NCBI RefSeq assembly: GCF_003668935.1
Contig: NZ_RAWP01000027.1
Coordinates: 17,555 to 81,554 of the forward strand
Reading direction: 5' to 3'
DNA length: 64,000 nucleotides
Source: Corallococcus sp. AB032C
GTDB taxonomy: Bacteria; Myxococcota; Myxococcia; Myxococcales; Myxococcaceae
The notes below the pieces were generated by a model, which had not been told where the DNA came from, ran no database searches, and saw nothing but the letters and a program-made list of their open reading frames with translations. Below, one piece after another: positions 48,353 to 64,000 of the stretch. Position numbers and translations under genes: made by a program. The first letter of the stretch is position 1, and each line of letters starts with the position of its first letter.

Positions 48353-50044
<1,692 letters not shown>

Positions 50045-50071: not shown

Positions 50072-50175
50072 CATAAGGGCCGCATCGACGATGTCAACGG
50101 AAAGGGGCAGACGTGTGGGCCTGAGGACGCCTACTGGCCCGCCCGGGTGGGGGGCCCGGGCTGCCCGGGAAGGCC

Positions 50176-50532: not shown

Positions 50533-50620
50533 GGGGTTCGGGCCGAAACGGGGCGCTGGAAGGTAACAGCGACGCCGGTCGTTGACAACGCGAAGGACGG
50601 CTTCTTAGCTGCCGGCCCGA

Positions 50621-51694
50621 ATGGCGAAGCGCATGGCGAAGCAAGGGGAGGCGCGGGACATGGACGCGCGGCTGGAGGGAGTCGCGGACGCCTTCGAGGC
50701 GAGGGACTTCGAGGCCGCGCTCACCAGCGCCGACGCCCTGCTCCGGGACGTTCCGGACTCACCAGAAGCCCTGCACTACCGGGCCGCCGCGCTGGTGGAG
50801 GTGGGACGCCTGGAGGACGCGGGCAAGGCCTATGGCGCCGCCCTCAAGATGGCCCCGGAAGACCTGGAGATCCTCTTCGGCGCGGCGGAATTCCTCGTGT
50901 GCCGCACCGGCGAGGACCGCGAGGCGGTGGAGGAAGGGCTGGAGTGGTGCGGCCGCGGGCGGAAGCTGGCGCAGCGGGCCGATGACGTGGAGCTCGTCTA
51001 CGAGTTCCTCCTCCTGGAGGGCATGGGCCTCAACCAGTTGGGGGAATGCGAGTCCGCGCTGAAAATCCTGGACCAGGCGCTGACGCACATGCCGCGCTCG
51101 ACGGACGCGCAGCTGGAGCGGGGCATCGCGCTGTTCGAGTTGTGCCGCTTCGCGCCCGCGCAGGAGGCCTTCGAGCGGGTGTTGAAGGACGCGCCGGACG
51201 AGGCCTGGGCGCACCACTACCTGGGGCTGGTCGCGGAGCGGCGCCAGGATGCGAAGGAGGCGAAGAAGCGCTTCTCCCGGGCGCAGGCGCTGGCCCCGGA
51301 GGAGCTGCCGCCGCCGGTGGCGCTGGAGGAGGCGGCGTTCGACCGCGCGGTGGAGGACGCGATGCGCGCCCTGCCCTCCCAGGTGAAGCAGTACATGGAC
51401 AACGTGACGCTGGCGGTGGAGGACCTGCCGTCGGATGAGGACCTGCTGGGTCAGCAGCCGCCACTGTCACCGTGCATCCTGGGGGTGTTCCGGGGCACGC
51501 CCGTGGGCGAGCGCAGCGTGATGGACGCGGCGGATCACTTCCCGCCCTCCATCGTGCTGTACCAGAAGAACCTGGAGCGCTTCGCGCGCACCCGCGAGGA
51601 ACTCATCGAACAGATTGGCATCACGGTGATGCACGAAGTCGGTCACTTGATGGGTCTGGATGAAGACGACCTGTGGGAGCGGGGGCTGGACTAG
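50621..51694 (+). CDS. TPR-repeat protein with C-terminal zincin-like metallopeptidase motif
   Basis: Seen: TPR-like helical repeats, then a C-terminal HEVGHLMGLDEDDL (HExxH) in a Zincin_1-like context. Confidence 0.6.
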   Translation: MAKRMAKQGEARDMDARLEGVADAFEARDFEAALTSADALLRDVPDSPEALHYRAAALVEVGRLEDAGKAYGAALKMAPEDLEILFGAAEFLVCRTGEDREAVEEGLEWCGRGRKLAQRADDVELVYEFLLLEGMGLNQLGECESALKILDQALTHMPRSTDAQLERGIALFELCRFAPAQEAFERVLKDAPDEAWAHHYLGLVAERRQDAKEAKKRFSRAQALAPEELPPPVALEEAAFDRAVEDAMRALPSQVKQYMDNVTLAVEDLPSDEDLLGQQPPLSPCILGVFRGTPVGERSVMDAADHFPPSIVLYQKNLERFARTREELIEQIGITVMHEVGHLMGLDEDDLWERGLD

Positions 51695-51715
51695 CGCCGT
51701 TCTCCCCTGCCCTGA

Positions 51716-52017
51716 TGCGCGCCATGCATGCATGGACGAAGCTGGGGCTGATGGCGGTGCTGGGTCTGACGGGCTGTCTGGGCGACGACGACGAGGAGCC
51801 GCGCACGTGTCCGCAGGTGGTGGTGTTCGCGCGCTCGGACAGCGAGACGTGCCAGTCCTTCCCGACGCCGTGTGACGTGCCGGAGGGGTACGTCGAGTGC
51901 TGCGGCGGCCTCTTCGGGGGCTGCGCGGGGAACGTGTCCGGAAACACCTGCGTGGATGATCCGTCCGACACGTGCCAGCCCGGGGGCAGCGCGGACTGCC
52001 CGGGCATCTGCCAGTAG
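51716..52017 (+). CDS. Small Cys-rich lipoprotein
   Basis: Seen: signal peptide and lipobox (LMAVLGLTGC), 12 Cys in about 80 mature residues. The start at ATG 51716 is uncertain (the ORF opens at 51673). Confidence 0.5.
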
Positions 52018-52022
52018 GCGTC

Positions 52023-54422
52023 TCAGGCGGCGCGAGAGCCCTTGTCCTCGAAGTAGGCGCGGCGGGCGCGGGCGCAGGTGGGGCACTGCCACTGCACCAG
52101 GGTGAGGTGGCGGTCGCCCAGGACGACGGCCTCGTGGCGGAGCGACTCCCGTGGGGCCTCGCTGGTGGCTCCGCAGGCGCAGCGCAGCCGGCCCAGCGTG
52201 GAGAGCAGCTCCTGAGGGCTGGTGATGGGGATGGCGGACCCGGCGCTGTCGCCCCGGTGGTCCGCGTCGAACTTGCGTGCGAAGGCGCGGCGCCGGCCCC
52301 AGGCGCGGCCCTTGCGCCAGAGCGCCACCGGGCCGCCCTGCGCGATGACGAACCACAGCACGAGGCACGTCGTGATGACGCCCAGGAGGATGGCACCCGC
52401 CTCGCCGGACGGAACGGACGAGGCCTGGTGGCGGGCGGCCCGGCTCCTGAGTTGGATGGCGTAGCCGCGCTGGGCCTCGGTGGCGCGCACGGCCTTCACG
52501 TACTCGGCGATGCGCTCGGGCGGGACCGAGTCCGCGGTGCTGCGGTAGCTGTAGTCGAGCAGCAGCGTCTTGCCTTCGGCGCGGGTGTCGGCCACGAAGC
52601 GGAAGGCCGGACCGTCCACGACCTCGTACTCCGTTTTGACAGGGGGCAGCTCGCCGGCCTTCAGCGTGATGCGGTGGCGGGCGAAGACGGGGTGCTCCAC
52701 CTCCAGCGGGAAGGCGCGGTGGGAGTAGTTCGGCACGGCGAGGTGCTGGCGGAGGCCATGCGCGCGGAACTCCCGGCGACCGTCCGAGGTCCAGAAGTCC
52801 TCGATGCGGTAGTGCTCTTGCGTGACGAGCACGTTCGTCACGGTGTCGTCGTCCACCGACATGGGCTTCGCGATGGAGATGTCCGCGTCCGTCTTCGCGT
52901 AGTAGTTGAAGTAGAGGCGGGACACCTCGGACAGGGACGTGCCCGCGAGCGCGCGGCGCATGGAGTTGGCGTCCGCCCCCGTGCGCGTGGTGACGACGTC
53001 GAGTGTCGCGGCCCCGTCGCGGCCCATCGCGACGTAGGTCTCGTCCACGAAGAGGGAGGGCTCCGTCAGCGTGGGCGTGGGGATGACGGAGAGCGCCGTG
53101 GTGGCGGGGGCGACAAGGAGGGCCCGGCCGTAGGAGGGCGGTTCGTAGCTTTCCAGCCCGCCGCGCTCCAGCGTCGCCGTGGGGTCCACCCACAGCTCGC
53201 GGCCGGCCACGGTGGCGTGGACGATGACGTGGTTGAACGCGGTGGCGGTGGGACGCAAGCCGTCCAGCAGCTGCGTGAGGTCCGTGCTCACGAGCGCCGG
53301 CTGCGCGTCGATGCCCAGCCCCTTGAGGAGCGATACCAAGAGGAGCGACTTGTCCTTGCAGTCGCCGAAGCGGCGCTGGAGGACCTCGTCGGGCGGATGG
53401 GGCTGGTGGGAGTTGGGGCCCATCTCGATGCCCAGGTAGCGCACCTCGTCCTGGACGAAGCGAAGCGCGGCGAGGAAGCGCGCCTCAGGGGTCGGCTCCT
53501 TCGACAGCCGGCGGACCTCCTGTTCCAGCGACTTCGAGCGGGCGGGCACCTGGAACAGCGTGGAGGCCCAGCGCGCGACGTCGTTCCAGTCCTTGTATTC
53601 GCTGAACTGGATCCACGGGTAGACGGGCTGCCAGCCGGGGACGTTGTCCTCGTGGCGGACCGCGGGCACGTGGTGGCGCTCCAGGATGATTTCACGCTCG
53701 CCGTTCAGCATCGACTCCGAGCGCGACAGGCCCGGCGCGGCGAAGTCCCGGATGAAGAGCGTGCGACCCCGCCCTTCCGGCCACAGCAGCCGGTAGGCGA
53801 AGTGGACCACGGGATAGGAATGGCCCACGCCGACGACGTCGGAGAAGCGGCCGCCAAAGACGGGGTTGGCGCCTTCGAAGGAGTACGCGACCTCCACGGT
53901 GTCGCCCACCCGCACGTCGTGGAGGAAGGGCACCACGGAGAGGTTGCCGTTGTAGAGCCGGTTCTGGAGCTCGGTCTCCTGCTGGATGACCCGGGCCTCG
54001 GCGGGCTGGAAGACGTCCTCGCGGCGGCCGTCGCGGATGCGCCAGATGCCGTGGACGGTGAGCTTCTGGTACGTCGGATCGAAGCGGAACTGGATGTCCG
54101 TGACGCGGTCGATGCCCCGCGGCGAGAGGACCTTCTGGGCCGAGTGCAGGTAGTGCACGCGCGATGGGCCGGACACGCGCACCTGTTCCTCGATCAGCAG
54201 CTGGGAGACGCTGGTCTCCTCCTCGCCCTCGGGAGTCGGGCCGGGGTCTGGAGGAATGGGAAGCGGCTTCACCCACGCGGCGGGAGGCCCGACGCGGAAC
54301 GGCCTGGCGTTCGTCGCCGCCGGTGCTGCCCGGGCGATCAAGGACAGACACAGACACAGCAGCAGGACGAGCGCCGGCGGGAAGCCCGGTGCCAGGGGGA
54401 CGGAACGGAAGGTTCGGCGCAT
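52023..54422 (-). CDS. Exported transglutaminase-like cysteine-protease-fold protein with N-terminal DUF3857-like region and C-terminal TM plus zinc-ribbon-like Cys pairs
   Basis: Seen: signal peptide (LVLLLCLCLSLIARA at the preferred ATG 54422), transglutaminase-like core (FGDCKDKSLLLVSLLKGLG), C-terminal hydrophobic helix, then CACG...CPTC. Confidence 0.65.
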   Translation of the reverse strand: MRRTFRSVPLAPGFPPALVLLLCLCLSLIARAAPAATNARPFRVGPPAAWVKPLPIPPDPGPTPEGEEETSVSQLLIEEQVRVSGPSRVHYLHSAQKVLSPRGIDRVTDIQFRFDPTYQKLTVHGIWRIRDGRREDVFQPAEARVIQQETELQNRLYNGNLSVVPFLHDVRVGDTVEVAYSFEGANPVFGGRFSDVVGVGHSYPVVHFAYRLLWPEGRGRTLFIRDFAAPGLSRSESMLNGEREIILERHHVPAVRHEDNVPGWQPVYPWIQFSEYKDWNDVARWASTLFQVPARSKSLEQEVRRLSKEPTPEARFLAALRFVQDEVRYLGIEMGPNSHQPHPPDEVLQRRFGDCKDKSLLLVSLLKGLGIDAQPALVSTDLTQLLDGLRPTATAFNHVIVHATVAGRELWVDPTATLERGGLESYEPPSYGRALLVAPATTALSVIPTPTLTEPSLFVDETYVAMGRDGAATLDVVTTRTGADANSMRRALAGTSLSEVSRLYFNYYAKTDADISIAKPMSVDDDTVTNVLVTQEHYRIEDFWTSDGRREFRAHGLRQHLAVPNYSHRAFPLEVEHPVFARHRITLKAGELPPVKTEYEVVDGPAFRFVADTRAEGKTLLLDYSYRSTADSVPPERIAEYVKAVRATEAQRGYAIQLRSRAARHQASSVPSGEAGAILLGVITTCLVLWFVIAQGGPVALWRKGRAWGRRRAFARKFDADHRGDSAGSAIPITSPQELLSTLGRLRCACGATSEAPRESLRHEAVVLGDRHLTLVQWQCPTCARARRAYFEDKGSRAA

Positions 54423-54600
54423 GGCGGAAGGGCGCACATCATGGAGCCCGGATGACGCGCCGGGCAAGGCGCCCCCTGGGACACCGGGCGAGCGGCCCCG
54501 CTTCATTCACCAGTGAAAACCGTCATGCAGGCCAAGCCTGGAATCGCCGTGACACGGGCTAGGGTTCCGGCCATCGGGTGGACGGCCCAGGAGGCTGGCG

Positions 54601-55569
54601 ATGGTCAACGTGAGGCAGGTCGCGACGCGGCTGAAGAGTGCGTTCCTGGCGGACCCGGAGCGCTTCTATACGAACGAGACAGGAGCCTGGGTGGCGGGGA
54701 TGCCGGCGCCGAGCGACATCCGGGTGACGACGGGCCGGGAGCCCTTCTGGATCAACCTGGGCTACTGGAAGCACGTGGAGAAGGTGGACGACTCCAACGT
54801 GGAGCGCGTGGGGGAGCTGTTCCGGTCCGCCCAGGCGGAGATGGCGCGCCTCCTGGCGAGGACCGCGAAGCTGGGGCCCGGGGATGCCGTCTTGGACTGC
54901 GGCTTCGGGTACGCGGACCAGGACCTGCTGTGGGCGGAGGAGTTCAAGCCCGCGAGCATCGTCGGGGTGAACATCACGCCGAACCAGGTGAAGGTGGGCC
55001 GGGAGCGCGTGAAGCTGACGGGGCTGGAGGGCGTGGTCCGGCTGGAGGTGGGGAGCGCGACGGCGCTGCCGGGACCGGAGGGAGCGTTCGACGGGGTGTT
55101 CGCGCTGGAGTCCGCGATGCACTTCCGGATGCGGCAGGACTTCCTGCGCGAGGCCTTCCGGGTGCTGAAGCCGGGAGGCCGGCTGGTGATGGCGGACATG
55201 GCGCAGAAGACGGACCGTGAGGCTGGAGCAGGACTCCGAGCGCGGCTGCGCTACCGCTACTGGCGGGGGCTGATTGCCTTCCCGGAGGAGAACGTCTGGT
55301 CGACGGAGCGCTACCGGGAGGAGCTGCGGCGGGCGGGGTTCCAGGACGTGAAGGTGGAGTCCATCGCGGAGGATGTGTACCCGGCGGTGAACACGGCGCT
55401 GGTGGCGCTGCGGGGCATGACGCAGCTGGAGCGCAATCCAGGGAGCACGTCCCTGCACCAGGTGCGCGCGGACGTGCACAAGGCGATGCGGATGACACCG
55501 GAGCAGCTCCAGTGGCCCGCGCTGTTCAACTGCGATGAGTACGCCGTGGTGTCCGCGCGCAAGCCGTGA
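54601..55569 (+). CDS. Class I SAM-dependent methyltransferase
   Basis: Seen: VLDCGFGYADQDL (motif I) and LKPGGRLVMAD (post I/II). Confidence 0.75.
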   Translation: MVNVRQVATRLKSAFLADPERFYTNETGAWVAGMPAPSDIRVTTGREPFWINLGYWKHVEKVDDSNVERVGELFRSAQAEMARLLARTAKLGPGDAVLDCGFGYADQDLLWAEEFKPASIVGVNITPNQVKVGRERVKLTGLEGVVRLEVGSATALPGPEGAFDGVFALESAMHFRMRQDFLREAFRVLKPGGRLVMADMAQKTDREAGAGLRARLRYRYWRGLIAFPEENVWSTERYREELRRAGFQDVKVESIAEDVYPAVNTALVALRGMTQLERNPGSTSLHQVRADVHKAMRMTPEQLQWPALFNCDEYAVVSARKP

Positions 55570-55611
55570 CCGTGGTTGACGGACTGGGGCGGAGCGGCGG
55601 TAATCGGAAGC

Positions 55612-55710
55612 GGTAGGGCCTCCGGACCTGGTGGCCGGCCCGGTCTTCAAAACCGGTGAGGGGCTGCGAGAGCAGTCCCTGGCGAGTTCGATTCCCGTGC
55701 CCTACCGCCA
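55612..55710 (+). tRNA. selC: tRNA-Sec (selenocysteine tRNA, anticodon UCA)
   Basis: Seen: 8-bp acceptor stem (GGTAGGGC/GCCCTACC) followed by G73 and an encoded CCA. Anticodon stem-loop CCGGT-CTTCAAA-ACCGG gives TCA. Long variable arm (GGGGCTGCGAGAGCAGTCCC), T-loop GTTCGATTCC, 99 nt. Overall collinear with E. coli selC as recalled from memory. Confidence 0.8.
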
Positions 55711-55853
55711 ATACTTCCGAGGGGTTACGCCCCACCTGCCCTGTGGATACCGTACCCTGCTGCGTCCAGGCGCGTCCAGACCAGTCCACTCGACTGCGTT
55801 ACCGCTGCGTTACTGCGCAGCAGGCAACGGCGAGGACTCAGCAACGGGCTCCC

Positions 55854-56768
55854 TTAGGGGAACATCACGTTGCCAAACACGACAGTACGCGACCCATCTT
55901 CCTCCCAGAGCTTGAGTGAGAAGGGCCCTCGGGTTGTTTCTGGTGAGGCCTCGGCTTCCACAACAACCCGACCGACGTTTCCTCCTGGAATTGGCATTCG
56001 CTGCCATACGCGGATCACCTTCAACTCCACGCCAGCCTTGCCTTTGAGCGTTGCGCCCTTCGCGAGCCATGGCTGAGCCCCGGCCTTCACGTCCAACTTG
56101 ATGTCCACCGCTACGCCCGTAGTGGAGCGATAGCTCGTGATGTAAGAGGCCGTCAGGTCACTCCCAGAGACTTGGGAGAACTCAAGGGTCACGACTTGCC
56201 CGGCCACACCACGCTCGTCCATTCCTCCGGTGGAGATCAGGCCCGCCAGCCCTCCCGGAGCATCGTGCTCGGCCATCAGTCTTGCGTTCTCATTTTGGCA
56301 GCGAAGCAATTCCGCATGCGCCTCGCGGGCTTCCTGCTGGTACGTCTCAATCGTCCGCTTTCCGCGATAGACCTCAATGAGAGACTCGGCCTTTGCCGGA
56401 TGGATCCGCAAAAGGAAGAATGCACTCAAGGGGGCTGCGCCATCCCTGAATCGCACGACCAGACGAAACCGCTCGCCTGGAGCTACACGCGACGAAGGCA
56501 CCAGTCGGATTGTGGCTTGCCCCACATCCACCAGTGCAAAGCGATCTCGCCCCTCCAACTCGACACTGTCGCGCATCAGGTCGGAATCGAAGAAGAGAGC
56601 CGTCGAGAGTCCAGAACTGATCGCGATCTCGGGGGCGACTTGAACATCGTCCGGCGACAATTCGATGCGTCGTGCGCCCGGCACCGACGCTGAACCCTCT
56701 GACTGAGCGACGGCCGTTTCGGCCACGAACAGCAGGCCCAGGAGCACGACGAAAGAAGAAGATGACAC
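55854..56768 (-). CDS. Secreted DUF2381-like protein (myxobacterial family usually paired with Ser/Thr kinases)
   Basis: Seen: signal peptide (FVVLLGLLFVAETAVAQ), 304 aa, directly downstream of a kinase gene on the same strand (26-bp gap). Family assignment is from memory. Confidence 0.55.
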   Translation of the reverse strand: MSSSSFVVLLGLLFVAETAVAQSEGSASVPGARRIELSPDDVQVAPEIAISSGLSTALFFDSDLMRDSVELEGRDRFALVDVGQATIRLVPSSRVAPGERFRLVVRFRDGAAPLSAFFLLRIHPAKAESLIEVYRGKRTIETYQQEAREAHAELLRCQNENARLMAEHDAPGGLAGLISTGGMDERGVAGQVVTLEFSQVSGSDLTASYITSYRSTTGVAVDIKLDVKAGAQPWLAKGATLKGKAGVELKVIRVWQRMPIPGGNVGRVVVEAEASPETTRGPFSLKLWEEDGSRTVVFGNVMFP

Positions 56769-56794
56769 TCGGCGATTACTCCCAGGTGGTGCTG

Positions 56795-58642
56795 TTACTC
56801 AAACTCGCTCACCGCCCTCACGTATTCGCTCGTGAAGATACGGCCATTGGAGGGTGAGTCGTTTCCGGGCTCGCGTGCCATTCCTCGTTCCCCGTCTTTC
56901 ACGTCGTAGACCTCCAGGCAGACAGGAAAACTGTCGCCCTTTGGCGTAGTCGCCGAGGTGAGTCGCCCGTAAACGCGGTCTCGCACGATTAGCCGACCAG
57001 ACAGAACTGTCCCGTGCGGCATTTCCTCCCAATCGCCGTACAAGAACACCTGGGCAGGGCCTTCCCGAACAGAAATGAATTGCGGGCGGTCACGGGTGAA
57101 AACGGCTTCGTGCCTGTCTCCAATGTCGATGCCCAGCTTCGCCATGGCCTTCACAGCACCCTTTGGGCACGGCTCCGGAGGTGGTGCCGGACGCACCTGC
57201 GGCCCTGGGCAGCCGAGCGCTGTGCAAGCCGCCGCCATTCCGACAGCACGGGCCATGACGCTCATGCCCTTCTTCGTGGGCTTCGAGGGGAGCTGAAGGG
57301 GCTGCGTCTCTTTCGGCTGCGTCGTCACGGTGGCTGAAACCTCCTGGAGCGTCGCGGGGAGAGCGACGGCCGCAGCAGTGGCCTCCGGCCCGGTGGGAGC
57401 TGCGGCGCGGTCAGCTTGAGGCGACTTGCCAGAGGGCGCTACTTCCTGACGGGTGGGGACTGGCCCTGCGACGCGCGACATCCCGAGGCCCCACGCCGCC
57501 CCTGACAGGACGAGCACCACCGCGAGCGCCGCCCAGGCGCGGAAGGCCCCACGCTGCGCAGGCGTCACACGCACGGTCGTCGCGGGCGGCGGTGTCTCAT
57601 CCGCAGCAGCCGCGTCCTCCGCTGGCACCTGTTTCTGGGGAATGCGTTTGCCGCGACGCGGGCGGTGTCGGGGTTGGTGCCGCCACTGCTCGAAGCTGTC
57701 GATGTCCTCTCCTTCCGTCGTCGCGGAATCCTCGTCGTAGGCGTCGCAGAGCGGCACGTCCCACGTCTCGTCCGCACCGCGCAGCGCCTGCTCCAGCAAC
57801 TCGCAGAGAGCCTGGGCGCTGGGCGTGCGCGCCTCGGGCGTCTTCTCCAGGAGCTGCAAGCACACGTCGCTCAGCGCCCGAGGCACCCGCTCGTTCTCCT
57901 CGTGCGGCGGTGTGGGAGGGCTGGAGAGAATCGCCTCCGTCAAGCTGGCGCCGTCCTCGCCGTCAAAGGGGAAGCGCCCCGTCAGCAGCCGGTAGGTGAC
58001 GAGTCCCAGCGCCCACAAGTCGTCCGCCGGCCCCGCTGTGTAACGGGCGTCCCTTGCCTCAAGGTGAGCACGCAGGAAGCGCCACGCCTCCGGGGAGCGG
58101 TAGTCCACCGTCCCGGGCGGGAGAATGTCCGCCGTCAGCTCGCGCGCGCCCGTGTAGTCGCCGATGCCGAAGTCCACCAGCTTGGCCAGGCCGTCCGAGG
58201 CGCGCACCATGACGTTGGCCTCCTTCACGTCCCGGTGCACCACCCCATCCGCGTGGGCAGCGGCGAGCGCCCGTGCCACGCCCAGCAGCACGCGCGTCAC
58301 CTGCCGCGCCGTGGGGTTCTCCGCGTCGGCCCACGCGTCCAGCTGACGCCCTTCCACGTACTCCGTAACGATGACGATGAATTGAGGCTGGGCCACCGGC
58401 CAGTAGCCATGGCCCAGAATCCGCACCACGTTGGGGTGATGCAGGCGAGTGAGGATGGAAACTTCGCGCTCCGCCCTCTCGCCTACGCGCGGCAGGTGCA
58501 GCAGCTTCAGAGCGAAGCGCTGGCCCTCGCAGTGCGCGAGGTACACCGTGCCGAAGCCGCCCTGCCCCAGCTGGCGCTCCACCGTGTAGCCCAGCACCTG
58601 GGCCCCAGGAGACAGCACGGCCGGAGGTGGCCCCCGCATCAT
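56795..58642 (-). CDS. Ser/Thr protein kinase (predicted active) with C-terminal non-catalytic region
   Basis: Seen: GQGGFGTVY, ALKLL, HRDVKEANVMV, DFG, SPE/APE motifs. A TM-like segment (ALAVVLVLSGAAWGL) is followed by a Cys-containing extracytoplasmic domain. Confidence 0.85.
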   Translation of the reverse strand: MMRGPPPAVLSPGAQVLGYTVERQLGQGGFGTVYLAHCEGQRFALKLLHLPRVGERAEREVSILTRLHHPNVVRILGHGYWPVAQPQFIVIVTEYVEGRQLDAWADAENPTARQVTRVLLGVARALAAAHADGVVHRDVKEANVMVRASDGLAKLVDFGIGDYTGARELTADILPPGTVDYRSPEAWRFLRAHLEARDARYTAGPADDLWALGLVTYRLLTGRFPFDGEDGASLTEAILSSPPTPPHEENERVPRALSDVCLQLLEKTPEARTPSAQALCELLEQALRGADETWDVPLCDAYDEDSATTEGEDIDSFEQWRHQPRHRPRRGKRIPQKQVPAEDAAAADETPPPATTVRVTPAQRGAFRAWAALAVVLVLSGAAWGLGMSRVAGPVPTRQEVAPSGKSPQADRAAAPTGPEATAAAVALPATLQEVSATVTTQPKETQPLQLPSKPTKKGMSVMARAVGMAAACTALGCPGPQVRPAPPPEPCPKGAVKAMAKLGIDIGDRHEAVFTRDRPQFISVREGPAQVFLYGDWEEMPHGTVLSGRLIVRDRVYGRLTSATTPKGDSFPVCLEVYDVKDGERGMAREPGNDSPSNGRIFTSEYVRAVSEFE

Positions 58643-58836
58643 GGCGACCTTCTTTCGGGCTCCCAGGCCTCTCGCATGCGGCGTCCTCCCAGCGGGGCGC
58701 GGACCCTACCAGAAGCGCGAGAAGCCCGGGAATCCCTCCCTCTGGCTGCACTCTCCAGAAAGGACTCAGGGAGTCCATTGTATTTCGCACAACCTCCAGC
58801 ATTCACTCTTAGCGAACCTTCGGTTACGCTTCCGCC

Positions 58837-59178
58837 ATGGCGCGCCCCTCCTCGCAGCCGGCCCATCCCCTCGCCAGCACCATTGGTGACGCCGCGCGAG
58901 CGGCACGCACCCGCCTGGGCCTCACCCAGGCCGAAATGGCCCAGCGCGTGGGCCTCGCGCATGCCGTCTACAGCCGCATGGAGCGAGGCCGCATGCTTCC
59001 CCGAGTCTCCACGCTCCAACGCCTGTGCGGCGCGCTGGGCGTCACCCCGGACGAACTGATGGGCCACACGCCCCCTTCCGACGACTTGCCTGCGCGGCAC
59101 CAGCTCCTCCTGCGTGTGCGCACCCTGGAGGAGCCCCAGGTGCGGGCGCTGCTGCTGTTGCTTCCCGAGTCCCGGTAG
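58837..59178 (+). CDS. XRE-family HTH transcriptional regulator (paralog 1)
   Basis: Seen: LGLTQAEMAQRVGLAHAVYSRMERGRMLPRVSTLQRLCGALGVTPDELMG, a Cro/CI-type HTH. Confidence 0.75.
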   Translation: MARPSSQPAHPLASTIGDAARAARTRLGLTQAEMAQRVGLAHAVYSRMERGRMLPRVSTLQRLCGALGVTPDELMGHTPPSDDLPARHQLLLRVRTLEEPQVRALLLLLPESR

Positions 59179-59205
59179 CGTGCCCTCGGCTACGCTGCGC
59201 CCGCC

Positions 59206-59565
59206 ATGAATGAGGAACTCGGCATCACCATCGGCACGGAGGCCCGCGCCGCCCGCCAGCACCTGGGCCTTACGCAGGCCGAAGTCGCGGAGCGCGTTGG
59301 GCTGGTGCACCCCGTCTACAACCGCCTGGAGCGCGGGAAGATGCTTCCCAGCGTCCCCTCCCTCTACCGCCTCTGCCGGGAGCTGCGGGTGTCGCCCGAG
59401 AAGCTGATGGGCCTGACGCCCACGGGCGACGTGCGCAAGGCCACGAAGCCCAAGCCCAAGGAAGAGGACGCCCCGGAGCTGCGGCGCCTCCTCCACCTCG
59501 CGCGCAAGCTGGACGCGGAGGACCTCGCGGCCCTCCTCCACGTCGCCTCGGCCCTGGCGCGCTGA
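59206..59565 (+). CDS. XRE-family HTH transcriptional regulator (paralog 2)
   Basis: Seen: LGLTQAEVAERVGLVHPVYNRLERGKMLPSVPSLYRLCRELRVSPEKLMG; about 60% identical to paralog 1 across the HTH. Confidence 0.75.
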   Translation: MNEELGITIGTEARAARQHLGLTQAEVAERVGLVHPVYNRLERGKMLPSVPSLYRLCRELRVSPEKLMGLTPTGDVRKATKPKPKEEDAPELRRLLHLARKLDAEDLAALLHVASALAR

Positions 59566-59569
59566 AGCC

Positions 59570-60739
59570 CTACTCCCGCTTCAAGCCCTCCAACTCGTGG
59601 GCCTCCAGACCCTCGGGGAAGAAGCGCTCCTCGCCGAACTCCACCTCGTCGCGAAGGACGCTGCCCTCCGCCAGCACCTGGGCCCATTCCGCTGCGGCTT
59701 CCTGCCGGCCGTAGCCCGGGTGCCGCCTCGCCAGGGCGACTCGCATCGCGTCGCGCATGTCCGCCGCCGTGGCAAATCGCTCCTCGGGTTTGGCGCGCAA
59801 CGCGACATGCAGCATCGCCTTCACGTCCGGAGATAGTGTGGCCACGGCCTCCTCGACGTCCTCCGGTCCGAAGCTCGCCAGCAGCACCTGCATTTGCGTG
59901 AGGGGCAGCGAAGGGAGGATTTCAGGCTGGAGGTGGACCAGCCCCTTGAGCGGACCCGGCACGTCCTCGACGTCGAAGAGGTGCTTGCCGGTGAAGAGTT
60001 CCACCAGCAGCACGCCCAGGCTGAAGACATCGGAGCGCGGAGTCAGGGGCTGCCGCGTCAGGTACTCCGGCGAGGCATACGCCACGTCGCCCCGGACGAG
60101 GCTCGCGGGCGACTCCTCGCGGCCCACCACCAGCGAGTAGGCCGCACCGAAGTTCGTCAGCTTCACCTCGCCTTGCGTGCCCACGTAGACATGCCGGGGG
60201 TTGACGTCGCGGTGGATGATGCCCAGCGACTTGCCGTCCGCGTCCGTCAGCGTGTGCGCGTGGTGCAGGGCCTCCGCGAGTTCCGCGCCGACGTAGAGGG
60301 CGAAGGCCTCGGAGACAGGCCGGCCGCGCGCCACCCCCGCACTCACCAGCGTCTCCAGCGAAGGGCCGTCCACATACTCCATGACGGCGTGCAGCGCGCC
60401 CTTGTGCACCTTGCGGTGAAACACGGTGGCGATGGCGGGGTGGCGCAGACGGAAGGCCAGCTGAATCTCCTCCCCCAGCCGCGTGCGCTGCATGAAGGTG
60501 GAGGGGTTCGCCAGCCGCCGCACGAAGCAATAGCTGGGCAGCTTGTTGCCGCGCTCCGTGAAGCGCTGGGCCAGCATCAGCACCTCGCCCGTCTCCATCA
60601 GCACCAGCTCGCGGACGGCTTCGTAGCGGATGCCGTCGATGGTGAAGAGGAGCAGGGGCCTCTCAGGCGTCGGCGGAAGCTGCCTGCGGCGCGCGGAGGC
60701 TTCGGTGCGCGCCAGGTCATCGGTTGTCGTGTCGGGCAT
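59570..60739 (-). CDS. Protein-kinase-like protein, predicted pseudokinase
   Basis: Seen: kinase fold (HRDVNPRHV, APE-like SPEYL) but no Gly-rich loop, HRDxKxxN degraded to HRDVNPRH, and DFG replaced by NFG. Confidence 0.65.
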   Translation of the reverse strand: MPDTTTDDLARTEASARRRQLPPTPERPLLLFTIDGIRYEAVRELVLMETGEVLMLAQRFTERGNKLPSYCFVRRLANPSTFMQRTRLGEEIQLAFRLRHPAIATVFHRKVHKGALHAVMEYVDGPSLETLVSAGVARGRPVSEAFALYVGAELAEALHHAHTLTDADGKSLGIIHRDVNPRHVYVGTQGEVKLTNFGAAYSLVVGREESPASLVRGDVAYASPEYLTRQPLTPRSDVFSLGVLLVELFTGKHLFDVEDVPGPLKGLVHLQPEILPSLPLTQMQVLLASFGPEDVEEAVATLSPDVKAMLHVALRAKPEERFATAADMRDAMRVALARRHPGYGRQEAAAEWAQVLAEGSVLRDEVEFGEERFFPEGLEAHELEGLKRE

Positions 60740-60838
60740 GGCTCCTCGGGAGGCGGGAGAGAAGGCGCGGCGGCGCCTCCCGAGGAGTTTGAGCGCAGTT
60801 AACTTTTAAAGTCCATAACGACGGACTCTAAAGAGCCA

Positions 60839-61135
60839 TCATCGCACCCGGGCGAGGGCGAAGCCTGCCCCCGCGCCGAGCACCACCGCCAGCACTACAG
60901 CCAGAACAGGGACGGGGCGCGGCTGCTGGCGGAGCACCTCGTTCTCCGCCTGGAGGCGGCGCAGCTCGCGAGCCGTGAGGATGCAGCGCTCCGTGGACAG
61001 CCAGCAGCCCTCAGCCACCACCACCGTGCGCCCGTCCTGAAGCGTCACGGTGGCGCGGGCCACATCCAGCACCTCCCCTTCGGCACGCGCCCCGCCTGCT
61101 ATCAGCAGGGCCAGCGCTAGCACCAGGCCCCTCAC
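60839..61135 (-). CDS. Small exported protein with coiled-coil segment and C-terminal TM helix (possibly spanin-like)
   Basis: Seen: N-terminal signal-like segment, ARELRRLQAENEVLRQQ, C-terminal hydrophobic helix. The start overlaps the upstream gene stop. Confidence 0.4.
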   Translation of the reverse strand: MRGLVLALALLIAGGARAEGEVLDVARATVTLQDGRTVVVAEGCWLSTERCILTARELRRLQAENEVLRQQPRPVPVLAVVLAVVLGAGAGFALARVR

Positions 61136-61641
61136 CGCTTGTCGCCCGGCTGGAGTGCATCGAGCGCGGCCACCGCCGCCGCCTTACCGGCAATCTCCCC
61201 GGCCGCCACCTCCCCCGCCTCGCGCGCCGCGTCCGCCACCGAGTCACCGAAGAGGAGCGTCTTCACCACCGTGAAGCCGCCCGCCGCCCCGAGGCCGATG
61301 GTGAGCGCCTTCAGCAGCAGGGCCACGGTGAAGGACTCGCCCGCCAGCAGCGCGTTGGACACCGCACCCGCGACGGACAGCAGCAGCGCCAGCACCGCGC
61401 CCGCCCGCGCCGTGCGCAAGAGCGGCCACCACGCGCCCACGAAGCGGCGCAGCACGTAGACGAGAGCGATGACGGCCAGGGACGCGACGAGGGCCCAGTT
61501 GCGGGCCGTCACCGCGTCGAGGATGAGGCGCGCGAAGGCCTCCATGTTGCCCGGGTCGGGCGTGCCGCTCGCCTGCGCAAAGGCGACGGAGGGGAAGACG
61601 AGGCAAAGGAAGAGGACGGCGAGACGTCGCAACATGGGCAT
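61132..61641 (-). CDS. Membrane protein with signal peptide and about three TM helices (holin-like position in a lysis-cassette-like arrangement)
   Basis: Seen: ATG at 61641 (MPMLRRLAVLFLCLVFPSVAFA), hydrophobic helices, charged C-terminus. Confidence 0.45.
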   Translation of the reverse strand: MPMLRRLAVLFLCLVFPSVAFAQASGTPDPGNMEAFARLILDAVTARNWALVASLAVIALVYVLRRFVGAWWPLLRTARAGAVLALLLSVAGAVSNALLAGESFTVALLLKALTIGLGAAGGFTVVKTLLFGDSVADAAREAGEVAAGEIAGKAAAVAALDALQPGDKR

Positions 61642-61682
61642 GCCTTTCGTGGGTGAGGCGCGGCGAAGTGCCGCGCGGGAAG

Positions 61683-62249
61683 TCAGAAGCCGAGCCGCGC
61701 CAGGGAGGCCGCGAGCGCCGGGTGCATGGCGCGCCACTCCGGCATCGAGCGCAGCGTGTCGAGGAAGCGCCAGACGGCGGCGAGCCGCTGCGCGTCCGTG
61801 CTGCCCTTTGGCTCCGAGTGGAAGAGGCCGCGCACGGGCTCCAATTGGCTGCCGCTCACGAGGCTCGGCCACTGGCAGTGCGGCGCGTCCCCGAAGGAGC
61901 CACCCCAGGCGAGGCCCGCGCTGCGCGTCTCCTCGCCAAGAATGGCGTAGGCAGGACCATCCCAGCGCGGCTGAAGTCCCGGGCGGTTCACGTCCGCATC
62001 GCGGCAGAAGTCGTTCGCCAGCCCGTAGTTGTGCGCGGAGAGTCCTTCCGGCGCCGCGCGCCCACCCTCTCCCTTCAGGTAGCGCAGGTGCAGCACGCGC
62101 TGCTCGGCGAAGGTGGAGTAGCCGCGCGTGGCGACGTAGTCCGCGCCTCGCGCTCGGCAACGGGCGATGACTTCCCCCATCACCGCCTGGAAGGGCGGAT
62201 AGAGGGGCTTCAAGTCGAGGCGGGAGAAGAGTTCAGGGTTGGGAATCAT
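61683..62249 (-). CDS. M15-family (VanY/DD-carboxypeptidase-like) zinc peptidase, endolysin-like
   Basis: Seen: LSAHNYGLANDF (H..D zinc ligands of the LAS/M15 fold), 188 aa, no signal peptide. Confidence 0.65.
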   Translation of the reverse strand: MIPNPELFSRLDLKPLYPPFQAVMGEVIARCRARGADYVATRGYSTFAEQRVLHLRYLKGEGGRAAPEGLSAHNYGLANDFCRDADVNRPGLQPRWDGPAYAILGEETRSAGLAWGGSFGDAPHCQWPSLVSGSQLEPVRGLFHSEPKGSTDAQRLAAVWRFLDTLRSMPEWRAMHPALAASLARLGF

Positions 62250-62289
62250 CCCCCACTGAATGGGGGCGGGTTTCGACGTGTGGCGTGAG

Positions 62290-63903
62290 TCACCCTTCCG
62301 CGCGGAATCGCACTCCGTCGAGGCTCACCCAGGCCGCCCCCGTGGGCAGGCTAAAAACTTGGAGGCCACCGTCCACGTTGAGCTGCCCCATGGCAAAGCC
62401 GTGGCTCGTCGGCAGTGACAGGATGCGGTTGGAGCTGGCCCGGTAGCCCACTGGGAAGCGGTACGCGTTCACGTAGCCCACCGCCCCTGGGCGGATGAGG
62501 CCGCGTGCGGACACCTCGTTGTCGCTGTTCTTGTAGAAGCCCAGGGGCCAGTTGGTCGCATCCCACGCCACCCAGCCATTCTCCAGGTCGCTAATCTGCC
62601 CCGTGCGGATGGCCGCCCACGGCTCGACGAGGCCGCCGATGCGCTCCAGGCGCACCGAATCGACGAACACCCACGGCAAGCCTTGCGTTGCATGGGCCAG
62701 CAGACGCACCTGGACGTAGCGCGTCCCGGTGGGCGCATTGTGGAAGCCTGTCGTCCGCTCCCAGCCACTCGTCGGCAGCGTTTTCGTCGTGCTCACCGTA
62801 CCCAACACGTTGAAGGCGCCGCCGTACCAGACGAGTTGGACAGAGAAGGCCGCCCCTACCTGTGACGCCCTCGCGAGGGCATCCACGCTGTACCTGTCGC
62901 CCGGCCGGGCAATCATCGCCTGCGAGTCAAGCCGCGTCCCGCTCGCCATGAGGCGGACGGCACGAGCCCCCGTGTACGCGTCCGCCGTCACCTGGGCATG
63001 CGCACCCCAGAGGCCCACGCCCATAGTCCAGGCGTCTGGCGGCAGCTCCTCGAAGGAGTGCGCCTCGAAGTCGGGGTTGGGTGGCGATTCCCCGAAGGCT
63101 ACGGCGGGCTGCAGCGTGGCGGGCGTCACATAGCCCGTCGTGACGGACACCTCGGCGGATGGCGCGCCCAGGTTGCCAGAGGCATCGCGGCCCACGACCC
63201 GGCAGTAATACGTCGCGCCGGGGCGCAGTTCGGACAACGGGAAGCGCGTCGCCGAGGCCCGCCCCTGGAAGGTGGCCTCGGAAGGCTGGAAGCCCGGCGT
63301 TCGCGACGCATGCACCTCGTACTCGGCCCAGGCTGGGCCGGTAGTCGCAGGGGTCCACGTCACCACGCACCCGTTGACGGTCGGCACCGCCCTCACCTCC
63401 TGCGGCGCGGCCGGGCCCGTGAAGGCCGCGCTGGGAGCGATGCCCGGTCGACTGTCACGCTCCAGCCACTCACGCAGCGAGGTAGAAGGCTGGCCGCGCA
63501 GCACCAGTTTCATGCGCGCCGTGCCGTCCGTGGCGCACTGGTGCTCCAGCTCCTGCACCGCAAGCCGCTGCGCCGTGTCCAACCGCACGCCATCCGGAAG
63601 CACGAGCACCAGGTCCGCCAGCTCCAGGCCCGGGTGCGGATCCACCGTCATGGTGACGGCGAGGGGAGAGACGGAGAGATCCGCGATGGCCGCGTCCGCG
63701 AGCCGTTGCGCTTCGGGCTCCGTGTCGATGTTGCTGGAGGACTCCTCCGCCACCTGCATCCAGCGGCGGCCCACCTGCGCGCGAGCCGTGGGGTTGCTGG
63801 CCGCCACCGTCTTTCGCTTCGGTGTTCCCGAGGCGTCCAAATCGTATTTGTCGCTGTAGACGACTTCGACGTCCGTGCGGATGTCCGCCAACTGCCGCGT
63901 CAT
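62290..63903 (-). CDS. Phage tail-fibre/host-specificity-like protein with fibronectin type III domain
   Basis: Seen: FN3 segment (CVVTWTPATTGPAWAEYEVHASRTPGFQP...YYCRVVGRDASGNLGAPSAEVSVTT), 537 aa, directly upstream and co-directional with the peptidase/holin-like genes. Confidence 0.45.
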   Translation of the reverse strand: MTRQLADIRTDVEVVYSDKYDLDASGTPKRKTVAASNPTARAQVGRRWMQVAEESSSNIDTEPEAQRLADAAIADLSVSPLAVTMTVDPHPGLELADLVLVLPDGVRLDTAQRLAVQELEHQCATDGTARMKLVLRGQPSTSLREWLERDSRPGIAPSAAFTGPAAPQEVRAVPTVNGCVVTWTPATTGPAWAEYEVHASRTPGFQPSEATFQGRASATRFPLSELRPGATYYCRVVGRDASGNLGAPSAEVSVTTGYVTPATLQPAVAFGESPPNPDFEAHSFEELPPDAWTMGVGLWGAHAQVTADAYTGARAVRLMASGTRLDSQAMIARPGDRYSVDALARASQVGAAFSVQLVWYGGAFNVLGTVSTTKTLPTSGWERTTGFHNAPTGTRYVQVRLLAHATQGLPWVFVDSVRLERIGGLVEPWAAIRTGQISDLENGWVAWDATNWPLGFYKNSDNEVSARGLIRPGAVGYVNAYRFPVGYRASSNRILSLPTSHGFAMGQLNVDGGLQVFSLPTGAAWVSLDGVRFRAEG

Positions 63904-64000
63904 CCCATCGAGGTTGCCGTACTCGTCCGGACCGTAGCTCCAGTCCTCCTCCGTCTGGAGTCGGTTGGGCGCGGCGAGCGTCAGTGCGTAGGCGCTTGCA

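What the first reader, a model, noticed from the sequence alone, without database searches (positions are those of the whole stretch)
55612..55710. tRNA-Sec (selC-like) gene, implying selenoprotein capacity, followed by island-like content
The tRNA is 99 nt with an 8-bp acceptor stem, anticodon UCA, G73 and a long extra arm. These are the defining features of bacterial tRNA-Sec, and the sequence is closely collinear with E. coli selC as recalled. The overlapping six-frame ORFs would hide it from automated annotation. selC is a classic integration hotspot. Downstream lie accessory-type genes: DUF2381 plus kinase, tandem Cro/CI-like XRE regulators, a pseudokinase, and a phage-like lysis/tail-fibre block running to the window edge. 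This is consistent with an island inserted at the tRNA 3' end.
Basis: partly seen in the sequence, partly recalled or inferred. Interest (0 to 1): 0.55.

Follow-up and report, generated by a model that had tools for sequence, protein, structure and literature searches.

The report
tRNA-Sec gene used as prophage site
This is an ordinary, functional-looking selenocysteine tRNA gene in a Corallococcus (myxobacterial) genome. Its 3' end is a landing site for mobile DNA, and here it is occupied by one end of a tailed-phage-like prophage, which is a familiar arrangement already known from other bacteria.

Summary
Window 55612-55710 (+) is a 99-nt tRNA-Sec gene, called by ARAGORN and by Rfam RF01852 (70.5 bits against a gathering score of 47). 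It has the bacterial 8+5 acceptor/T fold, anticodon UCA, a G discriminator, an encoded CCA and a 9-bp extra arm. Every substitution among six aligned Corallococcus copies keeps its base pair.

The genome is a Corallococcus sp. Published work already lists C. coralloides as a selenocysteine user with 3 selenoproteins, so the tRNA is not new.

The island reading also holds. Synteny with seven other Corallococcus loci, from six species, stops within 16 bases of the tRNA 3' end, at window 55710 exactly in four of them. What follows differs in almost every species. Two species have a tyrosine integrase right after the tRNA. One has a small island ending in a decayed tRNA-Sec repeat.

In this genome the occupant is one end of a siphovirus-type prophage. 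In order towards the tRNA it carries tail genes, lysis genes, a pseudokinase, two XRE regulators, a kinase and DUF2381. A related prophage ends with a homologous integrase, the same tandem motif as one junction, and a 66-nt tRNA-Sec 3' copy.

This element's own integrase and far repeat lie out of reach. The sel genes were not tested. Verdict: a new member of a known kind, of low to moderate interest.

The parts
54601..55569 (+). SAM-dependent methyltransferase gene. It is the conserved left flank of the tRNA in all Corallococcus loci and is not part of the mobile element.
   Evidence: Pfam Methyltransf_11/25/31. Orthologues are 84-96% identical in Corallococcus and are followed by tRNA-Sec in every locus that extends past the gene's 3' end.
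55612..55710 (+). tRNA-Sec (selC) gene, 99 nt, anticodon UCA, CCA encoded.
   Evidence: ARAGORN. Rfam RF01852, 70.5 bits against a gathering score of 47. Cloverleaf fold. Compensatory changes among species. Collinear with E. coli selC.
55645..55710 (+). Inferred attachment-site core: the 3' 66 nt of the tRNA, from the anticodon loop to CCA.
   Evidence: Inferred, not shown for this element. The partial tRNA-Sec copies at the far end of a related prophage (L058 17811-17877) and of the small island in L002 both match from CTTCA(A/G)AAC of the anticodon loop to CCGCCA.
55711..55853 (.). Junction between the tRNA and the first prophage gene (attL-type arm). It contains two tandem direct repeats: GCGTCCAGGC/GCGTCCAGAC (55762-55781) and CTGCGTTACCG/CTGCGTTACTG (55794-55815, 11-bp spacing).
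   Evidence: Repeat scan. The same layout, a tandem 9-11-nt repeat spaced 11 bp and lying 48-84 nt after the tRNA, occurs in L001, L006 and L002. The L001 motif GTCGTTAGCG recurs next to the integrase and partial tRNA-Sec copy of prophage L058. That these are integrase-binding sites is inference.
55854..56768 (-). DUF2381 secreted protein, 304 aa. It is the lowest-GC gene of the region and is hypervariable between strains.
   Evidence: Pfam PF09544, E = 1e-39. GC is 0.606 in 56-57 kb. It is 60-62% identical to the alleles in L001 and L021, while the genes from the XRE gene to the tail gene are 93-95% identical and the adjacent kinase 84-86%.
56795..58642 (-). Transmembrane Ser/Thr protein kinase, 615 aa, with catalytic motifs present.
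   Evidence: Pfam Pkinase, E = 7e-41. G-loop, ALK lysine motif (VAIK-type), HRD, DFG and SPE motifs plus a hydrophobic segment can be read in the translation.
58837..59178 (+). XRE/Cro-CI-type HTH regulator, 113 aa.
   Evidence: Pfam HTH_3, E = 3e-15. Gene call on the public record.
59206..59565 (+). Second XRE-type HTH regulator, 119 aa, a tandem paralogue of the first.
   Evidence: Pfam HTH_3. A 214-nt direct repeat at 71% identity links the two genes (family D1).
59570..60739 (-). Kinase-fold protein, 389 aa, probably a pseudokinase.
   Evidence: Pfam Pkinase match from model position 42 only. HRD is present, DFG is replaced by NFG, and no glycine-rich (GxGxxG) loop is apparent.
60839..61635 (-). 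Two small membrane proteins (95 and 167 aa) downstream of the endolysin gene. They are candidate holin/spanin-type lysis proteins.
   Evidence: Gene calls. Hydrophobic segments in the translations. No family match. The lysis function is inferred.
61683..62249 (-). M15-family peptidase, the endolysin.
   Evidence: Pfam Peptidase_M15_4. PHROG endolysin families, E = 2e-10.
62290..64000 (-). C-terminal 570 residues of an 800-aa tail protein with an fn3 domain. The gene runs past the window end to window-equivalent 64692.
   Evidence: Pfam fn3. PHROG tail protein / central tail fibre J. The full gene is seen in L020 and L022, which are 100% identical to the window.

Best explanation
Window 55612-55710 is the functional selC (tRNA-Sec) gene of a Corallococcus species.

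From established knowledge of the pathway: the tRNA is charged with serine by SerRS. SelA converts it to selenocysteinyl-tRNA using selenophosphate made by SelD. SelB delivers it to in-frame UGA codons that are followed by a SECIS hairpin. None of these steps was tested here.

The 3' 66 nt of the gene, from the anticodon loop to CCA, also serve as the chromosomal attachment site for a family of tyrosine integrases. The position immediately after the tRNA is therefore a hypervariable hotspot, occupied by different elements in different Corallococcus species.

In this genome the occupant is a siphovirus-type (HK97-like) prophage. One end abuts the tRNA. Reading outward from the tRNA the order is:
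- a junction arm with tandem repeats;
- DUF2381, a transmembrane Ser/Thr kinase, two XRE regulators and a pseudokinase;
- a lysis cassette;
- the tail module, interrupted by a KAP-NTPase gene.

By analogy with a related prophage, the element should be about 41 kb long. It should end with an integrase gene next to a partial tRNA-Sec repeat at about window-equivalent 97 kb.

Shown here: the tRNA, the synteny break, the phage genes, and the integrases and att repeats in relatives. Inferred: that this copy entered by the same integrase, that it is complete, the role of the tandem repeats, and selenoprotein use in this strain.
For: The tRNA:
- Called by ARAGORN and Rfam, with a supporting fold, compensatory changes between species and collinearity with E. 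coli selC.
- Sec use is published for C. coralloides (3 selenoproteins) and for Myxococcus species.

The hotspot:
- tRNA-Sec follows the methyltransferase gene in all eight related Corallococcus loci that extend past that gene's 3' end.
- blastn identity to the window ends at 55710 in L002, L003, L004 and L018, at 55713 in L005, and at 55726 in L006 and L017. Only L001 continues.
- The downstream regions are mutually unrelated except for two pairs (window with L001, L006 with L017) and one shared kinase gene. GC is 0.565-0.646 in five of them, against about 0.69 for the genome.
- A PF00589 integrase starts about 110 nt after the tRNA in L006 and L017.
- L002 has a 3.4-kb island carrying a ParA gene (GC 0.565 for the 4.4 kb downstream of the tRNA) that ends in a decayed tRNA-Sec copy.

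The prophage:
- L020 and L022 are 100% identical to window 49570-64000 and extend it.
- They show, in order, a tail terminator, a KAP NTPase on the opposite strand, tail completion, major tail (PF06199), tape measure, a 271-aa protein, the 800-aa tail protein, and the M15 endolysin.
- Tape-measure relatives in IMG/VR carry terminase small and large subunits, portal, protease, major head and adaptor genes. They also carry a replication module.

The att system:
- L058 lies on the same IMG/VR contig as L041, whose tail genes are 87% identical to those of this genome.
- L058 carries a 376-aa protein that is 45% identical (E = 2e-102) to the L006 integrase.
- 12 nt beyond that gene's start is the tandem GTCGTTAGC motif also found at the L001 junction, and 62 nt further is a 66-nt 3' copy of tRNA-Sec.
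- Integrase homologues at 77-85% identity sit at the contig ends of L064 and L071.

Mobility:
- The same block is 93% identical in another strain (L021) but lies next to an NRPS gene with no tRNA-Sec.
- C. exercitus is closer to the window upstream of the tRNA (94%) than L001 is (about 91%), yet it lacks the block.
Against: - No integrase and no repeat of the tRNA 3' end occur in the window or in the 8.2 kb beyond it. The far end of this particular element was never seen.
- Head and replication genes of this copy were not seen either, so it may be a remnant.
- Overall GC of the downstream 8.3 kb (0.684) hardly differs from that of the genome.
- The window's tandem motif (CTGCGTTAC) differs from the one in L001 and L058 (GTCGTTAGC).
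- The 376-aa L058 protein has no Pfam hit of its own at E <= 0.001. Its assignment as an integrase rests on 45% identity to the L006 protein, whose PF00589 hit is modest (34.9 bits).
- DUF2381 plus kinase pairs are, from my own knowledge, a common chromosomal paralogous family in myxobacteria. Their presence alone is therefore not a sign of foreign DNA.
- The exact 30-nt tRNA 3' end has no match in IMG/VR.
- selA, selB, selD and selenoprotein genes were not examined in this genome.
Confidence: 0.75

Rival explanations
1. The block downstream of the tRNA entered by site-specific integration but is now a defective prophage remnant, or a domesticated tail-plus-lysis cluster (a tailocin-like element of the flexible-tail type). 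In that case there would be no integrase, no far-end repeat and no capacity to excise.
For: Only tail, lysis and accessory genes were seen. A KAP-NTPase gene on the opposite strand interrupts the morphogenesis module. There is no integrase or att repeat within 16.5 kb of the tRNA. GC is close to that of the host. The junction and the DUF2381 gene have diverged far more than the rest between the window and L001, as expected for an old insertion.
Against: All visible structural genes are intact long ORFs: tape measure 892 aa and tail protein 800 aa. A tail-terminator gene lies beyond the KAP gene, so the module continues. Close relatives carry full head, replication and integrase modules. In the related prophage L058 the integrase lies at the end opposite the tail module, so an integrase at the unseen far end, out of reach here, is what the prophage model predicts.
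Confidence: 0.2
2. The tRNA merely marks the edge of a recombination-prone, lineage-specific region. The variable content arose by rearrangement or homologous exchange, not by integrase-mediated insertion into the tRNA.
For: Two species have host-like DNA after the tRNA: GC is 0.69-0.70 in L003 and L018, with third-codon-position GC about 0.92. Their genes there are an AlkZ-like glycosylase, an ABC transporter and giant NRPS/PKS-like proteins. The methyltransferase orthologue sits in a different context in Myxococcus, Pyxidicoccus and Archangium.
Against: Breakpoints fall within 0-16 nt of the tRNA 3' end in seven independent comparisons. Integrases lie directly at the site in two species. Partial tRNA-Sec repeats bound elements in L002 and L058. 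A shared tandem motif links the L001 junction to the L058 integrase arm.
Confidence: 0.04
3. The tRNA-like sequence is a non-functional relic or a tRNA-Ser-type variant, so it implies no selenocysteine decoding.
For: There are two non-Watson-Crick positions: A15.G23 in the D stem and A74.C84 in the T stem. The sel genes were not examined here.
Against: The Rfam tRNA-Sec score is well above gathering. The anticodon is UCA, with the 8+5 fold and a G discriminator. The sequence is identical or compensated across six species while the flanks diverge. C. coralloides is a published Sec user. A genuinely decayed copy (the L002 distal copy) looks quite different.
Confidence: 0.02

Closest known systems
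E. coli selC (tRNA-Sec, b3658) and the elements integrated at it (the LEE pathogenicity island and other selC islands)
   Same: The tRNA is of the same type and is collinear with selC: 63 identical columns, 8-bp acceptor, UCA, long extra arm, G73. It plays the same role as an integration site where different strains carry different foreign DNA directly after the 3' end. The literature describes selC as an integration site (PMC6174562, PMC7545054, PMC2704930).
   Different: The host is a myxobacterium at about 70% GC. The extra arm is about 3-4 nt longer. The cargo is a siphovirus-type prophage with kinases, DUF2381 and XRE genes, not virulence islands. The integrases here were not compared with the enterobacterial selC integrases, so no homology is claimed.
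Lambda-type prophage layout: integrase at one end, tail and accessory region at the other, arm-type sites on both att arms
   Same: The late genes run head, tail, lysis, accessory genes and then att. The integrase of the related prophage L058 is at the opposite end, next to the other att site. Tandem short repeats flank the core on both arms.
   Different: The core lies inside a tRNA gene. The accessory genes are myxobacterial-type kinases and DUF2381. Binding of the integrase to the repeats is untested. The far end of this copy was not seen.
Temperate myxophages that integrate into tRNA genes, such as Mx8 at a tRNA-Asp locus (from my own knowledge, not checked here)
   Same: A tyrosine-integrase phage of Myxococcaceae that uses the 3' part of a tRNA gene as attB.
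   Different: The tRNA target and the morphogenesis module differ. The 800-aa tail protein had no match among 50,697 deposited phage genomes. No paper in the held library that I found describes tRNA-Sec integration in myxobacteria.
Pseudomonas Pf filamentous prophages integrated at tRNA-Sec (PMC7549136, seen in the hit list only)
   Same: tRNA-Sec used as a prophage attachment site outside the Enterobacteriaceae.
   Different: Those are filamentous inoviruses, whereas this is a tailed-phage module. I did not read that paper beyond the hit list.

Membership tests
Bacterial tRNA-Sec (Rfam RF01852; selC) | Covariance-model score above the curated gathering threshold | tested here: met
   70.5 bits against 47, E = 2.2e-12, model positions 1-91 of 91. 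ARAGORN also calls tRNA-SeC.
Bacterial tRNA-Sec (Rfam RF01852; selC) | Anticodon UCA in a 7-nt loop | tested here: met
   Loop CUUCAAA at tRNA positions 34-40.
Bacterial tRNA-Sec (Rfam RF01852; selC) | 8-bp acceptor stem plus 5-bp T stem (the 8+5 fold, 13 bp in all) | tested here: met
   Positions 1-8 pair perfectly with 88-95. Positions 71-75 pair with 83-87, with one G.U and one A.C, invariant in all copies.
Bacterial tRNA-Sec (Rfam RF01852; selC) | Extended 6-bp D stem with a small loop | tested here: inconclusive
   Positions 11-16 with 22-27 give five Watson-Crick pairs plus an A.G, with a 5-nt loop. The Rfam alignment uses another register with more mismatches.
Bacterial tRNA-Sec (Rfam RF01852; selC) | Long variable arm and G73 discriminator (SerRS identity elements) | tested here: met
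   A 9-bp arm with a GAGA loop at positions 48-69, carrying two compensatory pairs in L006. G at position 96 is followed by CCA.
Bacterial tRNA-Sec (Rfam RF01852; selC) | Partner genes selA, selB and selD, and UGA/SECIS selenoprotein genes, in the same genome | not testable with these tools
   None lie in the window. Published for C. coralloides DSM 2259: a Sec user with 3 selenoproteins (PMC5029168 Table S2).
tRNA-integrated prophage / genomic island | Synteny with relatives breaks at the 3' end of the tRNA gene | tested here: met
   Breaks at 55710, 55713 or 55726 in seven of the eight other Corallococcus loci that include the tRNA.
tRNA-integrated prophage / genomic island | Integrase gene belonging to the element | tested here: inconclusive
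   None between 55711 and window-equivalent 72.2 kb. A homologous integrase family is present at the same site in L006 and L017, and at the far end of the related prophages L058, L064 and L071.
tRNA-integrated prophage / genomic island | Direct repeat of the tRNA 3' segment at the distal boundary | tested here: inconclusive
   Not found in the window or in L020 (window-equivalent up to about 70.7 kb). Found for the L002 island and the L058 prophage. The distal boundary of this copy is out of reach.
tRNA-integrated prophage / genomic island | Phage structural and lysis genes | tested here: met
   Tail terminator, tail completion, major tail, tape measure, tail protein and M15 endolysin.
tRNA-integrated prophage / genomic island | Composition distinct from the host | tested here: not met
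   GC is 0.684 downstream against about 0.69-0.70 for the genome. Only the DUF2381 gene dips, to 0.606. Relatives in IMG/VR are at 0.63-0.67.

The most novel reading that the evidence does not exclude
The att-proximal cargo of this prophage family is a secreted, hypervariable DUF2381 protein paired with a transmembrane Ser/Thr kinase, together with two XRE regulators and a pseudokinase. The most novel reading is that this cargo is a phage-borne lysogenic-conversion module, for example a polymorphic surface sensor for superinfection exclusion or for kin or self discrimination. If so, the large 'paralogous' DUF2381-kinase family of myxobacteria would be spread and diversified in part by tRNA-Sec-integrating phages.

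The evidence that does not exclude this reading:
- The block travels with the tail genes to a different chromosomal site in another strain.
- DUF2381 alleles are only 60-62% identical where most neighbouring genes are 93-95% identical.
Probability: 0.15. Interest if true: 0.55.

Novelty: new member of a known kind. Interest (0 to 1): 0.3.

Why it matters
In itself it matters little. A tRNA-Sec gene in a genus already listed as a selenocysteine user, with mobile DNA at its 3' end, is the classic selC situation.

There are three modest points of value:
- It documents tRNA-Sec as a hypervariable integration hotspot in Corallococcus. The nine loci examined carry seven unrelated downstream contents.
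- It defines a candidate att core, tandem arm motifs and an integrase family. These could be turned into a site-specific integration tool for Corallococcus and related myxobacteria, where such tools are few.
- It links a widespread siphovirus-type prophage family of myxobacteria to that site.

Tried and rejected
- Repeat of the tRNA 3' end. I searched the window (30-mer, up to 3 mismatches) and did fuzzy searches of all fetched loci. Nothing was found for this element.
- Walking beyond the window. A homology search with the KAP-NTPase fragment did not return the genome's own protein. Its best hits were 54-56% identical, including named Pseudomonas proteins, so it could not be used to walk further. 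The public contig ends at about window-equivalent 80 kb in any case.
- The exact 30-nt tRNA 3' end in IMG/VR: no match.
- The 800-aa tail protein against deposited phage genomes and against IMG/VR: no match.
- Consensus promoter and terminator scan around the tRNA: nothing found. An upstream GGTAAT-containing motif is conserved in all Corallococcus copies, but its function is not established.
- The tRNA-like 3' fragment at the L021 junction (CCCAGGGTTCGATCCCCGGCTCGTGCAC) was not supported by Rfam and recurs in no other strain's locus (its only other occurrence, L023, is the same contig as L021). I treat it as unverified.
- A hit of the fuzzy search in L071 looks like chance inside coding sequence.
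- Literature searches found nothing on tRNA-Sec integration or on this prophage family in myxobacteria.
- The methyltransferase orthologues of Myxococcus, Pyxidicoccus and Archangium gave no usable 'empty site', because both of their flanks differ.
Full report
**The observation**

The window has exactly one tRNA gene. An Rfam scan of the whole window at gathering thresholds gives a single hit, RF01852 tRNA-Sec. It scores 70.5 bits against a gathering score of 47, E = 2.2e-12, and covers the full model.

The sequence folds without constraints into four of the five cloverleaf helices (acceptor, D, anticodon and extra arm); the predicted T-arm pairing is not the canonical one. The energy is -52.5 kcal/mol, z = -3.1, and none of 200 shuffles folds as well. 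Its features are:
- an 8-bp perfect acceptor stem;
- a 6-position D stem with one A.G;
- a 5-bp anticodon stem with loop CUUCAAA;
- a 9-bp extra arm closed by GAGA;
- a 5-position T stem with one G.U and one A.C;
- a G discriminator and an encoded CCA.

In six aligned Corallococcus copies (three distinct sequences), all nine variable positions lie in stems. They form four double compensatory changes and one wobble change.

Alignment with the annotated E. coli K-12 selC is collinear, with 63 identical columns and four gap positions.

The remark that overlapping ORFs would hide the gene is not borne out. The genes called on the public record leave the tRNA in an intergenic gap. The overlapping ORF is a shadow frame of the methyltransferase gene.

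**The organism and selenocysteine use**

GC is about 70%. Gene content is myxobacterial, with DUF2381, many Ser/Thr kinases and response regulators.

The methyltransferase gene just upstream of the tRNA has its closest relatives in Corallococcus species at 84-96% identity. Relatives in Myxococcus, Pyxidicoccus and Archangium are 67-74% identical. A public contig, GCA_013155175.1 JABJTS010000010.1, is 100% identical to window 49570-64000.

No sel gene and no obvious selenoprotein gene lies in the window. I could not scan the rest of the genome. Table S2 of Peng et al. [quoted passage not shown] It also lists several Myxococcus species with 2-3.

Together with the compensatory conservation of the tRNA, this makes selenocysteine decoding likely here. 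It also means the trait is already known for the genus.

**The hotspot**

tRNA-Sec follows the methyltransferase gene in every related Corallococcus locus that extends past that gene's 3' end (L001-L006, L017, L018). It does not do so in the Myxococcus, Pyxidicoccus and Archangium loci, where both flanks of the methyltransferase also differ.

blastn identity to the window runs through the upstream 10 kb at 79-94%. It stops at 55710 in L002, L003, L004 and L018, at 55713 in L005, and at 55726 in L006 and L017. Only L001 (C. coralloides KYC2213) continues, at 87% downstream of the tRNA.

The downstream regions are mutually unrelated apart from two pairs, window with L001 and L006 with L017, and one kinase gene shared by L006 with the window and L001. 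GC is 0.565-0.646 in five of them. Even two C. exercitus strains differ from each other (L003 against L018).

In L006 and L017 a PF00589 tyrosine integrase gene starts about 110 nt after the tRNA.

In L002 a 3.4-kb island carrying a ParA gene (GC 0.565 over the 4.4 kb after the tRNA) ends in a decayed copy of tRNA-Sec. That copy is best preserved from the anticodon loop to CCA.

These are the standard signatures of a tRNA gene used as an integrase attachment site.

**What occupies the site in this genome**

Reading away from the tRNA, the window holds:
- a 143-nt junction;
- DUF2381 (304 aa);
- a transmembrane Ser/Thr kinase with all catalytic motifs;
- two tandem paralogous XRE regulators;
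- a kinase-fold protein with NFG in place of DFG and no apparent glycine-rich (GxGxxG) loop;
- two small membrane proteins;
- an M15 endolysin;
- the C-terminal 570 residues of an 800-aa tail protein with an fn3 domain.

The identical public contig extends this by 8.2 kb. That stretch adds a 271-aa protein, an 892-aa tape measure protein, a 127-aa protein, a major tail protein (PF06199), a tail completion protein, a KAP-family NTPase on the opposite strand, and then a tail-terminator gene.

The KAP gene has no close relative. Its best hits are 54-56% identical, including named Pseudomonas proteins. It looks like a later insertion into the tail module.

**The prophage family**

Relatives of the tape measure protein in IMG/VR (60-65% identity) belong to a family of at least 17 predicted prophages, whose large terminases are 91-100% identical. 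They carry:
- small and large terminase, portal, protease, major head and adaptor genes;
- a replication module with a VapE-like primase, a DNA methylase, a PD-(D/E)XK nuclease, a PolA-like polymerase and a sigma factor.

Some members are 87-92% identical to this genome over the tail completion and major tail genes. The block is therefore one end of a siphovirus-type prophage, or of its remnant.

**Link between this prophage family and tRNA-Sec**

One family member, L058, is on the same IMG/VR contig as L041. At the end opposite the tail genes it ends with three features:
- a 376-aa protein that is 45% identical (E = 2e-102) to the integrase sitting next to tRNA-Sec in L006;
- a tandem motif, GTCGTTAGC-ac-GTCGTTAGCG, 12 nt beyond that gene's start;
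- a 66-nt copy of the tRNA-Sec 3' part, running from CTTCAAAACCGG of the anticodon loop to CCGCCA, 62 nt further on.

Homologues of this integrase at 77-85% identity sit at the contig ends of two more members.

The same motif, GTCGTTAGCG repeated twice at 11-bp spacing, lies 84 nt after the complete tRNA-Sec in L001. At the same distance the window has CTGCGTTACCG/CTGCGTTACTG (55794-55815), plus a second tandem pair at 55762-55781. L006 and L002 have their own tandem 9-11-nt pairs at 11-bp spacing, 71 and 48 nt after the tRNA.

I read these as arm-type integrase sites on both arms of the attachment site. That is an inference.

The layout then matches a lambda-like prophage. The complete tRNA, an arm, the accessory genes, the lysis genes and the tail genes sit at one end. 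The integrase, the other arm and the partial tRNA sit at the other.

Adding the L058/L041 distances to the 16 kb seen here gives an expected length of about 41 kb. The far end would fall near window-equivalent 97 kb, which I could not reach.

**Evidence of mobility**

In another strain (L021, assembly GCA_013155195.1) the same block is 93% identical from the tail protein into the DUF2381 gene. It abuts an NRPS gene, with no tRNA-Sec and no methyltransferase gene.

Similarity drops inside DUF2381, as expected if the attachment and integrase module was exchanged. Another family member (L072) carries a different PF00589 integrase next to tRNA-Leu(UAA).

C. exercitus is closer to the window upstream of the tRNA than C. 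coralloides KYC2213 is, yet it lacks the block.

**What remains open**

- The integrase, the distal repeat, and the head and replication genes of this particular copy were not seen. It may be complete or a remnant.
- The composition of the block is close to that of the host.
- The tandem motif differs from that of L001 and L058.
- The sel genes were not examined.
- A possible tRNA-like fragment at the L021 junction could not be validated.

**Comparison with what is known, and verdict**

The closest known case is E. coli selC with its islands and prophages (for the literature; for the tRNA). tRNA-Sec integration is also reported in Pseudomonas Pf phages (hit list only).

I found no paper in the held library describing tRNA-Sec integration or this prophage family in myxobacteria.

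It is a new member of a well-known kind. Interest is low to moderate.

Noticed in passing
window 30833-33166 (-): A 777-aa protein with strong matches to the major vault protein domains (MVP_shoulder E = 9e-45, Vault repeat domains). It is a bacterial homologue of a protein best known from eukaryotic vault particles.
   Followed up: no
window 55854-56768 (-); L001 11222-12136; L021 7332-8246: The DUF2381 gene next to the att junction is hypervariable, 60-62% identical at the protein level between strains, while most neighbouring prophage genes are 93-95% identical. It is also the lowest-GC gene of the region (0.606). The differences are spread along the whole protein.
   Followed up: partly
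L020 1-949 / L022 258-2459 (window-equivalent about 68.3-70.5 kb): A 733-aa KAP-family P-loop NTPase lies on the opposite strand, between the tail-terminator and tail-completion genes of the prophage. Its best database relatives are only 54-56% identical, including named Pseudomonas proteins. It looks like a defence-type gene inserted into the tail module.
   Followed up: partly
L002 14535-14633: The repeat that bounds the 3.4-kb island in C. carmarthensis aligns to more than the 3' 63 nt of tRNA-Sec. It also aligns to the 5' acceptor strand and to the conserved upstream GGTAAT motif, with the D arm deleted. It therefore looks like a decayed whole tRNA-Sec copy rather than a simple att duplication.
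   Followed up: partly
L021 / L023 8247-8469: In another Corallococcus strain the same prophage end lies next to a 3528-aa NRPS gene. The 223-nt junction holds a sequence resembling a tRNA T-arm plus acceptor 3' strand (CCCAGGGTTCGATCCCCGGCTCGTGCAC). Neither ARAGORN nor Rfam supports it as a tRNA.
   Followed up: partly
L072 17386-18720: A member of the same prophage family carries a different, strongly matching PF00589 integrase directly next to a tRNA-Leu(UAA) gene. This suggests that integrase and attachment modules are exchanged within the family.
   Followed up: no
window 55685 and 55695 (tRNA positions 74 and 84): An A.C mismatch in the T stem is invariant in all Corallococcus tRNA-Sec genes. 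The partial copy at the end of prophage L058 has A-U at that position, and E. coli selC also has A-U there.
   Followed up: no
window 39005-42484 (-): The valyl-tRNA synthetase gene carries a C-terminal extension of about 100 aa that is low in complexity and resembles histone H1 / HC2.
   Followed up: no
window 25295-27043 (-): A protein with a LysM domain and a type VI secretion VgrG3-like C-terminal domain (E = 3e-53), lying outside any obvious T6SS cluster in the window.
   Followed up: no
window 1-2112 (+) and 6279-7748 (+): A globin-coupled methyl-accepting chemotaxis protein, cut by the window start, and a Fic-domain protein.
   Followed up: no
window 58870-59431: The two XRE regulator genes are tandem paralogues: a 214-nt direct repeat at 71% identity with 348-nt spacing.
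   Followed up: no
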